This document shows, piece by piece, positions 9,432 through 10,628 of a DNA stretch of 31,154 nucleotides (positions are counted from its first letter, which is position 1; each line of letters starts with the position of its first letter). The translations under genes and the position numbers were made by a program. The notes beneath the pieces were generated by a model. The model was not told where the DNA came from. It saw only the letters and a list, made by a program, of their open reading frames with translations, and made no database searches. Origin of the DNA: Anaerolineae bacterium (GTDB lineage Bacteria; Chloroflexota; Anaerolineae; DUEN01); contig JAGHDS010000238.1 in NCBI GenBank assembly GCA_021159845.1, positions 1-31,154 of the forward strand, given 5' to 3'.

Positions 9432-10628
9432 CTATGGTAGCCACTCTTGAATCGGCTGGCCAACGATATGGGTTACAGTCCGATGCAATGGGTGGAATCC
9501 ATCCGCCTCCTGTTCTCGCGTCGGGACTGAGGCTTCGTCTGGCTTATCGGACAGCGCCAGCATAGTGATCCCACGCGATCGGAACCATTGGATCGCGGCC
9601 ATGACCTCCCCCGTCAGGCATATCTCCTCTCGCAGCCTGCGCTCCATCGGCACGTCGTCGGGTAAATGCCCCATGCGGGCGACGGTGGAGAGGTACTCCT
9701 GGCGCCGGAATGCCTTGAAGGGGGTCGGGTCACCACTCAGGAAGCGAGCATAAACGGCGCGATGTATATCGGTCAGACCCGGGTCACCCGAACGACACAA
9801 CTTGGCATCTGCCCACCGGATAAACTGGGCAAAATCGACCATATGTCCTTGTCGGATGTCCTCCTTCAGCTCCTCCAGGGTGCACAACCCTGCTCCGATG
9901 ATGAGGCAGACGTAAGCCAGATAGTCCTGATTATCTGCCGTGAAACTGTGATACTGAACCTGGTTCAGCTCTCGATACGCGGCCTGAAACACATCCCGGT
10001 TAAAGCGTGAGCCGAGCACATTGGCGACGATGCGCTCCACGCCTTCCATACGAGCTTCGTCGATGGGGGTTGAATTGCGGCCTCGCCCGCCCAGCGCCGT
10101 CTTGTCGATGTCCACCACGACGACGGTATCCTCATCCAGGCGTAGTTTTTGATCCTCGACGAGCCAGCGCAGCCATTCCGCGATGCCTCCCCACCGGTTG
10201 GATAGGGTGACGCCATCCTCGCGATGCTTGATCTCTGTAGGGGCATCCAACCGCTCCGTGGCGATGAACGCTCGGCCGGGCCAGCCCGACACCTCCTGCA
10301 GGTTGTGGAAAGCCGTGCTATCCAGGAGCGCCGTATCGCCCAGATATAGCAGTTGCCGGATTGGCCGTTGGGGCCATTCCAGATCGTGGGCCCGGCGCAA
10401 TAGCCAGGCAACAGCCTGCGCGTACGCTTGCTCATGTTTGCGCGGCAGTCGGCTGTCCGGCAAGCCCATCTCCTTCCAGGCCTTGCGTAGCGAGGGCAAG
10501 CGCGGATCCATAGGCTCCAGCCGTCGGTAGACGACCATATCGCCAAGGAATTCGGACAGTGTACCCCGGCCAAGCACCTCCAGTGCGGGGGTCTCCAGGA
10601 AGGCTTTAACTCTCGAATACTCAGTCAT
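9432..10628 (-). CDS. Hypothetical protein with HAD-hydrolase motifs in permuted order
   Basis: 398-aa ORF with an ATGA overlap with asd. It contains RK (K64), LYLGDTALLD (G97-D103), VVVDIDKT (D173-T177) and IQWFRSRGITMLALSDKP (S360). Confidence 0.8.
   Translation of the reverse strand: MTEYSRVKAFLETPALEVLGRGTLSEFLGDMVVYRRLEPMDPRLPSLRKAWKEMGLPDSRLPRKHEQAYAQAVAWLLRRAHDLEWPQRPIRQLLYLGDTALLDSTAFHNLQEVSGWPGRAFIATERLDAPTEIKHREDGVTLSNRWGGIAEWLRWLVEDQKLRLDEDTVVVVDIDKTALGGRGRNSTPIDEARMEGVERIVANVLGSRFNRDVFQAAYRELNQVQYHSFTADNQDYLAYVCLIIGAGLCTLEELKEDIRQGHMVDFAQFIRWADAKLCRSGDPGLTDIHRAVYARFLSGDPTPFKAFRRQEYLSTVARMGHLPDDVPMERRLREEICLTGEVMAAIQWFRSRGITMLALSDKPDEASVPTREQEADGFHPLHRTVTHIVGQPIQEWLP

What the first reader, a model, noticed from the sequence alone, without database searches (positions are those of the whole stretch)
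9432..10628. Circularly permuted HAD-superfamily enzyme coupled to asd
Seen: all four HAD motifs appear, but in the order III-IV-I-cap-II. K64 (LPRKHE) is followed by a helix and LLYLGDTALLD (motif IV, GDx4D, 10340-10320). Then comes VVVDIDKT (motif I DxDxT, 10112-10098), a predicted helical cap of about 160 aa, and EVMAAIQWFRSRGITMLALSDKP (motif II, S360). Established: canonical HADs run I-cap-II-III-IV. Inference: a natural circular permutant with an intact catalytic set, which profile searches may miss, so likely annotated as hypothetical. The context suggests a phosphoserine or phosphohomoserine phosphatase/phosphotransferase.
Basis: partly seen in the sequence, partly recalled or inferred. 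Interest (0 to 1): 0.85.

Follow-up and report, generated by a model that had tools for sequence, protein, structure and literature searches.

The report
Permuted HAD-like enzyme replacing homoserine kinase
This unannotated gene, always placed just after asd in Chloroflexota, encodes a phosphotransferase-like protein with the HAD catalytic motifs in rearranged order, and it is the best candidate for the homoserine-phosphorylating enzyme of threonine synthesis that these bacteria appear to lack.

Summary
ORF 9432-10628 (-), 398 aa, carries K64, G97-D98..D103, D173-x-D175-x-T177 and S360 exactly as described. K64, D103, D173, D175, T177 and S360 are invariant across 42 homologues down to 26% identity; D98 is conserved in at least 90% of them. 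No Pfam, NCBIfam or PDB sequence match exists, and every named homologue is "hypothetical".

The permuted-HAD reading is supported indirectly:
- profile-profile hits to a HAD-IB profile fall in the expected permuted order;
- co-evolution places the motif-IV strand beside the motif-I strand, and that beside the motif-II strand;
- a model of residues 160-398 has a HAD phosphatase as its top structural hit, but only at Z 6.6.
No permutation-aware superposition could be run.

- The gene follows asd in 88 of 104 loci, often as lysC-hom-asd-X, sometimes with thrC directly after.
- In 401 Chloroflexota genomes it occurs in 35.
- None of the 35 has ThrB, which 288 of the other 366 have, and none has HomK.
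- All five X-bearing relatives tested, and the window's own genome, have thrC.
It is therefore most likely a non-orthologous homoserine kinase or phosphotransferase.

The phosphate donor is unknown. A weak APH-type kinase in Chloroflexaceae is a residual rival. Other first readers of this scan noted the same cluster in two other genomes.

The parts
9432..10628 (-). Gene X: 398-aa permuted HAD-like protein, the candidate homoserine phosphotransferase or kinase
10437..10445 (-). P62-R63-K64, the motif III lysine, just before helix 67-84
   Evidence: K64 invariant in 42 sequences; H65-L102 co-evolution, rank 62
10320..10340 (-). G97-D98-T-A-L-L-D103, motif IV at the end of strand 92-97
   Evidence: hhalign aligns it to GDxxxD of HAD-IB
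10098..10112 (-). D173-I-D175-K-T177, motif I at the end of strand 168-173: predicted nucleophile and acid/base
   Evidence: hhalign P=0.0042
9624..10091 (-). Residues 180-335: flap hairpin plus a large all-helical C1-type cap, with invariant R193, D232-N233-x-D235, F307-R308 and T315
   Evidence: flap L179-I189 rank 3 and hinge G181-T339 rank 8
9540..9560 (-). L357-A-L-S360-D-K-P363, motif II at the end of strand 355-360
   Evidence: V170-M356 co-evolution, rank 6
10448..10628 (-). N-terminal residues 1-60, a small alpha/beta module predicted to lie over the active site where HAD C2 caps sit; R35 is invariant
   Evidence: L24-I174 is the top co-evolving pair; R35 invariant
10625..11734 (-). 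asd, translationally coupled to X (ATGA overlap)
   Evidence: asd directly upstream in 88 of 104 loci
11731..12900 (-). hom (homoserine dehydrogenase)
12970..14376 (-). lysC (aspartokinase with ACT domains)
14526..14659 (-). SAM-I riboswitch heading the operon
   Evidence: Rfam RF00162, 87 bits; promoter-like site 14718-14690 and terminator-like sites 14502-14445
7966..9312 (-). DUF1015 (SerBK) gene downstream of X; this link is lineage-specific
   Evidence: 20 of 96 loci; not found in 5 of 5 other X genomes tested
6636..7922 (-). glyA (SHMT), last gene of the unit; terminator-like site at 6562-6546

Best explanation
Gene X encodes a Mg-dependent phosphoryl-transfer enzyme built on a HAD-type Rossmannoid core whose chain order is circularly permuted: K-helix, S4, S5, then S1, C1 cap, S2, S3. 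The break lies at the site where C2 caps are normally inserted. X supplies O-phosphohomoserine for threonine synthase, and probably also for methionine synthesis. It thereby replaces homoserine kinase in Chloroflexota that lack ThrB and HomK.

Proposed mechanism (inferred, not shown):
- D173 is phosphorylated by a donor.
- D175 acts as acid/base on the leaving or attacking hydroxyl.
- D98, D103 and the D175 backbone hold Mg2+.
- S360 and K64 stabilise the phosphoryl group.
- The helical cap and the N-terminal lid (R35, R193, D232, D235, R308) bind the amino-acid substrate.
- The homoserine gamma-OH then takes the phosphate.

The donor is not determined. Candidates are phosphoserine (as in ThrH), L-aspartyl-4-phosphate, and ATP.
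For: Fold:
- The motif residues K64, D103, D173, D175, T177 and S360 are invariant in 42 homologues, D98 in at least 90%.
- The AF2 model has pLDDT 92.5, with a strand ending at each motif.
- hhalign against a HAD-IB profile gives 164-237 to 10-98 (score 28.3, P 0.0042), 46-109 to 140-202 (score 23.2, aligning PRK and GDTxxxD to the HAD K and GDxxxD), and 304-389 to 68-151.
- Twelve control comparisons scored at most 20.2.
- DCA on 424 sequences pairs strand 92-97 with 168-173 (R91-D167, Q92-T168, L93-V171), pairs 168-173 with 355-360 (V170-M356, rank 6), and links motif flanks H65-L102, L102-V172 and L102-L359.
- The fragment model of 160-398 (pLDDT 95.9) has HAD phosphatase 6iah as top VIA hit. 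Seven of the eight hits spanning both ends are annotated HAD-family proteins. About 11 of the top 50 weak Foldseek hits are HAD.
- The nearest named language-model clusters are all HAD_2 or Hydrolase.

Function:
- asd is directly upstream in 88 of 104 loci, and lysC and hom are present in 34 of 59 loci with enough flank.
- X is immediately followed by thrC in 7 loci, and a thrC-lysC-asd-X cluster occurs in a Roseiflexaceae genome.
- One aspartokinase-X fusion was found.
- Of 401 genomes, 35 have X and 288 have ThrB, with no overlap.
- HomK over cut-off occurs in 33 genomes, none of them with X.
- The iPGM-like genes of four X genomes are PGM-type, with Lys at the HomK Glu position.
- thrC is present in 5 of 5 X genomes tested and in the window's genome.
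- The window's genome has no ThrB, HomK, thrB_alt, ThrH, MetA or MetX match.
- A SAM riboswitch heads the operon.
Against: - No significant match to any HAD profile or structure: Pfam none, Foldseek E at least 0.04, best Z 6.7, within the range the tool calls uninformative.
- Strand 386-390 (putative S3) did not pair with strand 355-360 in the DCA top 400.
- The window's genome is only 86% complete.
- At least 14 of the 35 X genomes (13 of 26 Chloroflexaceae at E <= 1e-25, plus G015) carry an APH-family kinase scoring about 92-128 bits against type II homoserine kinase model TIGR00938 (cut-off 256), and 110-166 bits against PRK05231 (cut-off 271); G245 has one at 83 bits. It could be their homoserine kinase.
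- G086 has a near-cut-off ThrH-like gene, 210 bits against 223.
- The genomes are related, so the phyletic pattern represents perhaps 3-7 independent lineages.
- No experiment exists.
Confidence: 0.6

Rival explanations
1. X is a phosphatase, such as a phosphoserine phosphatase filling the widespread SerB gap of Chloroflexota, or a phosphohomoserine or aspartyl-phosphate phosphatase. It is not a homoserine-phosphorylating enzyme.
For: Most HAD enzymes are phosphatases. SerB was found in only 3 of 81 genomes of the phylum. X sits beside DUF1015/SerBK and glyA in this window. Two tested Chloroflexus genomes lack DUF1015, and two other Chloroflexus genomes in the sample lack SerB.
Against: The SerB gap is phylum-wide, yet X is in only 35 of 401 genomes, exactly those without ThrB or HomK. 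G011 and G036 have both SerB and X. X is tied to asd, hom and thrC, not to serA or serC. A phosphohomoserine phosphatase has no substrate source in genomes without a homoserine kinase.
Confidence: 0.1
2. The function is as in the best explanation, but the protein is not a permuted HAD. It is a flavodoxin/CheY-like (2-1-3-4-5) domain that converged on a HAD-like Asp, Asp, Ser, Lys site and acquired a helical insert.
For: Permuting HAD gives exactly the receiver topology, with acidic residues after strand 1, the nucleophile after strand 3 and Ser/Thr after strand 4 (established knowledge of CheY and HAD active sites). Whole-protein VIA hits spanning residues 61-377 are generic alpha/beta folds, many of them flavodoxin-like (periplasmic binding proteins, SirB). 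No HAD match is significant.
Against: A 27-sequence receiver profile gave no in-register alignment, best P 0.023 on a cap helix. The DxDxT signature with Asp at +2, the flap hairpin, and a cap inserted into the flap are HAD hallmarks. K64 lies before the helix preceding the acidic strand, as in HAD, and not after strand 5 as in CheY. The fragment's full-span structural hits are nearly all HAD proteins.
Confidence: 0.15
3. In Chloroflexaceae the APH-family protein, a weak relative of type II homoserine kinase, is the real homoserine kinase. X then has another role in the aspartate pathway, such as regulation, aspartyl-phosphate handling, or activation of homoserine for methionine only.
For: APH-like genes scoring about 92-128 bits against TIGR00938 occur in 13 of 26 Chloroflexaceae and in G015; G245 has one at 83 bits. 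Homoserine kinase models are their best NCBIfam match, at 110 and 166 bits in the two proteins scanned. The operon in this window is SAM-controlled.
Against: Scores are far below the cut-offs of 256 and 271. The gene's context is unrelated: sfsA, an MFS transporter, an ABC exporter and APH(6). Similar hits occur in ThrB-positive genomes G014, G175, G191 and G323. No such gene was found in G000, G086 or G320 even at E 1e-3, so it cannot explain the Anaerolineae X genomes.
Confidence: 0.12

Closest known systems
ThrH of Pseudomonas aeruginosa (phosphoserine:homoserine phosphotransferase, HAD subfamily IB; TIGR02137)
   Same: It has HAD-type Asp chemistry and forms O-phosphohomoserine without a GHMP kinase, and it can substitute for ThrB (Singh et al. 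2004, as cited in GapMind 2026). X's weak profile similarity is to subfamily IB, including an xIDE segment after motif I.
   Different: X has no detectable sequence match to TIGR02137. Its motif order is permuted. Its cap is about 155 aa against about 60-80 aa. It has an extra N-terminal lid. ThrH coexists with ThrB, whereas X never does in 401 genomes. The donor for X is unknown.
Phosphoserine phosphatase SerB/PSP (HAD-IB; PF12710, TIGR00338)
   Same: The four catalytic motifs, a C1 cap inserted after the flap, and an amino-acid phosphate substrate class.
   Different: SerB has the order I-II-III-IV and X has III-IV-I-II. hhalign reaches only P 0.003-0.004. X co-occurs with SerB in G011 and G036.
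HomK / ThrB2 (TIGR02535, iPGM-like homoserine phosphotransferase)
   Same: It has the same proposed role, a non-orthologous replacement of ThrB in the same phylum (Dehalococcoidia), shown by complementation (10.1101/2024.10.14.618325). It is likewise found almost only in ThrB-negative genomes of the sample, with two exceptions, G025 and G106.
   Different: It has an unrelated fold (alkaline-phosphatase-like, with a phosphoserine intermediate). It never occurs in X genomes.
ThrB (GHMP homoserine kinase, TIGR00191)
   Same: The predicted pathway step.
   Different: It has an unrelated fold and is ATP-dependent. It is mutually exclusive with X: 0 of 35 against 288 of 366.
CheY-like receiver domains (PF00072)
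   Same: The permuted chain order gives the receiver strand order and the same spatial layout of acidic pair, nucleophile Asp and Ser/Thr (inference from established structures).
   Different: There is no profile similarity. X has Asp at +2, a flap, a C1 cap, and the Lys N-terminal to the acidic strand.

Membership tests
HAD superfamily | Motif I hhhhDxDx[TV] at the C-terminal end of a core strand | tested here: met
   VVVVD173ID175KT177 ends strand 168-173. D173, D175 and T177 are invariant in 42 sequences.
HAD superfamily | Motif II Ser/Thr at the end of the strand next to S1 | tested here: met
   S360 ends strand 355-360 and is invariant. V170-M356 is DCA rank 6.
HAD superfamily | Motif III Lys at the start of the helix preceding the motif IV strand | tested here: met
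   K64 is invariant, helix 67-84 follows, then strand 92-97. hhalign aligns it to the HAD-IB Lys.
HAD superfamily | Motif IV (G)DxxxD or DD at the end of the strand on the other side of S1 | tested here: met
   GDTALLD here and GDTENDR in Chloroflexus. Strand 92-97 pairs with 168-173 in DCA, ranks 23, 60 and 66.
HAD superfamily | Canonical chain order I - (C1 cap) - II - III - IV | tested here: not met
   The order is III-IV-I-cap-II in every homologue. This is the point of the finding: if X is a member, it is a circular permutant.
HAD superfamily | Squiggle and flap hairpin directly after S1, with the cap inserted into the flap | tested here: inconclusive
   DSSP shows bridge residues at 175 and 179. 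DCA gives L179-I189 at rank 3 and a hinge pairing G181-T339 at rank 8. The squiggle geometry cannot be checked without coordinates.
HAD superfamily | Significant sequence or structure match to known members | tested here: inconclusive
   Pfam, NCBIfam and PDB sequence searches give none. hhalign P is 0.0042 and 0.023, above 12 controls. VIA Z 6.6 is the top hit for the fragment, below the tool's trust level.
ThrH (TIGR02137) | Score over the curated model cut-off | tested here: not met
   No NCBIfam hit for X.
ThrB GHMP kinase (TIGR00191 / PF00288) | GHMP kinase domain | tested here: not met
   No Pfam or NCBIfam hit.
CheY-like receiver (PF00072) | Profile match with Asp pair, Asp, Thr/Ser and Lys in register | tested here: not met
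   No Pfam hit. hhalign against a 27-sequence receiver profile gives no in-register alignment.
Homoserine kinase activity (EC 2.7.1.39 or a phosphotransferase equivalent) | Forms O-phosphohomoserine from homoserine | not testable with these tools
   Only genomic inference is available: context and complementarity with ThrB and HomK.

The most novel reading that the evidence does not exclude
X is an L-aspartyl-4-phosphate:L-homoserine phosphotransferase. It takes the phosphate from the acyl-phosphate made by aspartokinase, a donor isosteric with its product O-phosphohomoserine, so one pocket would serve both half-reactions. Aspartokinase would then be the only ATP-using step for both reduction and phosphorylation. 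This would explain three things: X is welded to asd, the other consumer of aspartyl phosphate, by translational coupling rather than to thrC; an aspartokinase-X fusion exists; and no nucleotide-binding signature is seen. It would be a new reaction carried out by the first natural circularly permuted HAD.
Probability: 0.15. Interest if true: 0.92.

Novelty: new variant of a known kind. Interest (0 to 1): 0.8.

Why it matters
Homoserine kinase is one of the four steps that account for most remaining unexplained gaps in prokaryotic amino-acid biosynthesis (GapMind 2026, 10.1101/2024.10.14.618325).

This family would close that gap for a large part of Chloroflexota. It comprises at least 2,900 clusters at 90% identity and occurs in more than 570 species-level genomes. 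These include Chloroflexus, Oscillochloris, Roseiflexaceae, Caldilineales, Ardenticatenales and Thermoflexus.

It would be a further independent invention of this step, after ThrB, type II ThrB, HomK and ThrH.

I found no paper describing a natural circular permutant of the HAD fold. The permutation yields the CheY-receiver topology, which bears on how these two phospho-aspartate folds are related.

It also explains why annotation pipelines call the protein hypothetical, and why metabolic models would wrongly predict threonine auxotrophy for these organisms. The hypothesis can be tested directly with a standard E. coli thrB complementation.

Tried and rejected
- Whole-protein Foldseek against PDB and AFDB clusters, and the Atlas shape search, found only the protein's own family or noise.
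- Whole-protein VIA-align gave generic alpha/beta hits, Z at most 6.7.
- Complex prediction with Mg, meant to locate the metal site, was counted but not folded. It is no evidence either way.
- A SerB-only profile was too shallow (Neff 2) and aligned motif I only.
- An HMM built from that SerB alignment, searched against the window genome's ORFs, found one weak HAD.
- An atypical response regulator used as a phmmer seed found nothing, so receivers were taken from a Pfam search of the window's genome instead.
- A phylum search for SerB to harvest HAD sequences returned only 3 loci.
- The idea that X works together with DUF1015/SerBK was rejected as a general rule. DUF1015 was not found in 5 of 5 X genomes outside the Caldilineales-type clusters, and it is adjacent in only 20 of 96 loci.
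- The idea that the iPGM-like gene on contig C177 is a diverged HomK, as in Dehalococcoides, was rejected. It carries the PGM-type Lys and is 55% identical to apgM-type proteins against 30% to HomK.
- The cap's Z 5-6 resemblance to T4-lysozyme or chitosanase helices was discounted as typical helical noise.
- Literature searches for a permuted HAD, or for a homoserine kinase in Chloroflexus, found nothing relevant.
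Full report
THE OBSERVATION

The ORF 9432-10628 on the minus strand encodes 398 aa. Its ATG overlaps the asd stop codon as ATGA.
- PRK64;
- G97-D98-TALL-D103 (10340-10320);
- D173-I-D175-K-T177 (10112-10098);
- S360 in LALSDKP.
Pfam, NCBIfam and a profile search of PDB sequences give no match. The prediction that profile methods miss this protein is therefore correct.

THE FAMILY

A word-indexed search found at least 2,928 clusters at 90% identity, all full-length and all "hypothetical". 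An exhaustive search of 50% representatives found 340 clusters.

Named sources are Caldilineae, Anaerolineae, Ardenticatenales, Thermoflexus and Litorilinea. A search with a more distant branch added Chloroflexus, Oscillochloris, Viridilinea and Chloroflexales, and Roseiflexaceae also appear.

In 42 homologues down to 26% identity these residues are invariant: R35, K64, G97, D103, W146, D173, D175, T177, R193, D232, N233, D235, F307, R308, T315, S360, D361 and P363. D98 is conserved in at least 90%. Distant paralogues with extra N-terminal domains keep all four motifs. Chloroflexus has the canonical GDTENDR spacing.

THE FOLD

AF2 gives a confident model, pLDDT 92.5. Its order of elements is:
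- a small N-terminal alpha/beta part, residues 1-60;
- K64 and helix 67-84;
- strand 92-97;
- helix, then strand 118-123;
- helix 148-159;
- strand 168-173;
- a tight hairpin, then about 155 residues of helices;
- helix 340-351, then strand 355-360;
- strand 386-390.
Mapped on HAD, this reads K-helix, S4, S5, S1, flap, C1 cap, S2, S3. That is a circular permutation cut at the C2-cap site.

Sequential structure searches with the whole model find only the protein's own family or generic alpha/beta domains at Z no higher than 6.7. Coordinates are not exposed, so I tested the reading in four other ways.

(a) Profile-profile comparison. I built a HAD-IB profile from 12 PF12710 loci and 5 SerB domains. 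hhalign gave three local alignments in exactly the permuted order:
- 164-237 to HAD 10-98 (motif I; score 28.3, P 0.0042);
- 46-109 to HAD 140-202 (PRK to the HAD Lys, GDTxxxD to GDxxxD; score 23.2, P 0.023);
- 304-389 to HAD 68-151 (motif II; P 0.11).
After permuting the alignment in silico, motifs II, III and IV fall in one collinear alignment. Twelve controls never exceeded score 20.2. The controls were reversed profiles, five unrelated families compared with HAD and with X, and a 27-sequence receiver profile.

(b) Co-evolution. Mean-field DCA on 424 family sequences (Meff 210) gave these pairings:
- strand 92-97 with 168-173 in parallel register (R91-D167 rank 23, L93-V171 rank 60, Q92-T168 rank 66);
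- strand 168-173 with 355-360 (V170-M356 rank 6);
- residues flanking the invariant catalytic residues with each other (H65-L102 rank 62, L102-L359 rank 84, L102-V172 rank 104). About 0.3 such pairs are expected by chance in the top 110.
The flap (L179-I189, rank 3) and a cap hinge (G181-T339, rank 8) also appear. The strongest pair of all, L24-I174, puts the N-terminal module over the active site. Strand 386-390 did not pair with 355-360 in the top 400, so the S3 assignment stays open.

(c) Fragment model. A model of residues 160-398 alone has pLDDT 95.9. Its top VIA hit is HAD phosphatase Tt82 (6iah), Z 6.6, with 148 residues aligned from S1 to S3. The other hits spanning both ends are 1qyi, 1te2, 3kbb, 5olw, 3ddh, 6w04 and 7shg. 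All of them except 7shg, a transferase whose fold I did not check, are annotated as HAD-family proteins or (1qyi) recalled by me to be HAD-like. About 11 of the top 50 weak Foldseek hits are HAD, against none for the whole protein. The Z values are below the level the tool calls trustworthy.

(d) Language-model features. The nearest named clusters are all HAD_2 or Hydrolase, at 0.77. This is a lead only.

The rival origin is therefore a receiver-like fold. The receiver profile gave no in-register match, and the Asp at +2, the flap and the C1 cap are HAD features.

CONTEXT

The window has this order: promoter-like site, SAM-I riboswitch (87 bits), lysC, hom, asd, X, DUF1015, glyA, terminator-like site. 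hom-asd and asd-X overlap by 4 nt.

Across 112 loci from other genomes:
- asd is directly upstream on the same strand in 88 of 104 loci with enough flank;
- lysC and hom are present in 34 of 59;
- DUF1015 follows in 20 of 96;
- thrC follows directly in 7 of 96.

Specific examples:
- hom-lysC-asd-X-thrC in a homologue only 32% identical;
- thrC-lysC-asd-X in a Roseiflexaceae genome;
- an asd-X pair with a 13-nt overlap in Chloroflexus;
- one aspartokinase-ACT-X fusion, on a single contig.

PHYLETIC PATTERN

I searched an even sample of 401 Chloroflexota genomes, nearly all at least 90% complete.
- X is in 35 of them. These comprise 26 of 26 Chloroflexaceae, 2 of 2 in family f14, three Roseiflexaceae genomes (f59), and one genome in each of four Anaerolineae families including the window's own.
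- ThrB at E <= 1e-30 is in 288, and none of those carries X. That tally includes one unpublished genome, G263, which does not affect the conclusion.
- HomK over its cut-off is in 33, none with X. The 26 Chloroflexaceae have no iPGM-like gene at all.
- The iPGM-like genes of the four X genomes that have one carry the PGM-type Lys at the column where HomK has Glu. This is the determinant described in GapMind 2026. They are 50-55% identical to apgM-type proteins and 27-30% to HomK.
- thrC is present in the window's genome and in 5 of 5 other X genomes tested.
- The window's genome (86% complete) has no ThrB, HomK, type II ThrB, ThrH, MetA or MetX match.
- SerB is rare throughout the phylum (3 of 81). 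It coexists with X in G011 and G036, so X is not simply a SerB substitute.
- DUF1015 was not found in 5 of 5 other X genomes tested, so it is not an obligate partner.

CAVEATS

- Chloroflexaceae and G015 carry an APH-family kinase whose best NCBIfam matches are type II homoserine kinase models, far below cut-off. Scores are about 83-128 bits against TIGR00938 (cut-off 256) and 110-166 bits against PRK05231 (cut-off 271). The gene sits in unrelated contexts, and similar genes occur in some ThrB-positive genomes. It remains a rival there, but not in G000, G086 or G320, which have none.
- G086 has a ThrH-like gene at 210 bits against a cut-off of 223.
- The genomes are related, so the number of independent lineages is small.

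INTERPRETATION

The most economical reading is that X makes O-phosphohomoserine for ThrC. Given the SAM riboswitch and the lack of MetA and MetX, it possibly does so for methionine synthesis too. It would use HAD-type phospho-aspartate chemistry on a permuted core.

The presence of Asp at +2 fits transfer to or from an alcohol, unlike the Thr at that position in P-type ATPases (established knowledge).

The donor cannot be decided here. The candidates are phosphoserine (ThrH precedent), aspartyl-4-phosphate (suggested by the asd coupling, the aspartokinase fusion and isostery with the product) and ATP.

No paper in the searched library describes this family or a permuted HAD. GapMind 2026 lists thrB among the main unresolved gaps. 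Other first readers of this scan noted the same cluster in two other genomes, but none of those notes has been followed up.

Noticed in passing
window 7966-9312 (-): A DUF1015 protein (Pfam E 6e-83) lies between X and glyA. GapMind 2026 shows this family (SerBK) can replace SerB and looks like a serine kinase. The lysC-hom-asd-X-DUF1015-glyA order recurs in the closest relatives (L046-L048, L118).
   Followed up: partly
81 Chloroflexota genomes: Canonical SerB was found in only 3 of 81 genomes, so the phosphoserine phosphatase step is unexplained in most of the phylum. The two tested Chloroflexus genomes also lack DUF1015.
   Followed up: partly
L192:10-2535 (protein P0127): A single metagenomic contig encodes aspartokinase + ACT + X as one 841-aa protein. 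This is a possible Rosetta-stone fusion, or a read-through of adjacent lysC and X genes as in L101.
   Followed up: partly
L014:2153-3976 (P0220; also P0228, P0229, P0257, P0251, P0201): Distant paralogues (27-33% identity) carry an unknown N-terminal extension of about 200-430 aa (about 230 aa in P0220) and keep all four motifs. P0220 sits directly after an atypical response-regulator gene, so it probably has a different function.
   Followed up: no
protein P0145: An X homologue is fused at its C-terminus to a prokaryotic JAB/MPN domain (Pfam E 3e-24).
   Followed up: no
L195:4898-5902 (-) in Chloroflexus G213; L197:4967-5977 (+) in G015: APH-family kinases whose best NCBIfam match is type II homoserine kinase (110 and 166 bits, cut-off 271). 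They are enriched in X-bearing Chloroflexaceae. Their specificity is unknown.
   Followed up: partly
G086:C1:1605716-1606291 (-): A ThrH-like HAD (TIGR02137, 210 bits, cut-off 223) lies in a complete Anaerolineae genome that also has lysC-hom-asd-X.
   Followed up: no
window 14445-14718 (-): A promoter-like site (11 of 12 matches), a SAM-I aptamer (87 bits) and two terminator-like hairpins precede lysC. A second promoter-like site (11 of 12) lies at 12983-12955, between lysC and hom.
   Followed up: partly
P0001 residues 193-308 (window 9705-10052): The helical cap gives Z 5-6 matches to T4-lysozyme, chitosanase and endolysin helical domains. This is probably a generic helical arrangement.
   Followed up: no
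G068 and G136 (family f4, same class): These genomes lack ThrB, X and HomK over cut-off, but each has two iPGM-like genes, both with the PGM-type Lys in G068. Their homoserine kinase step remains unexplained.
   Followed up: partly
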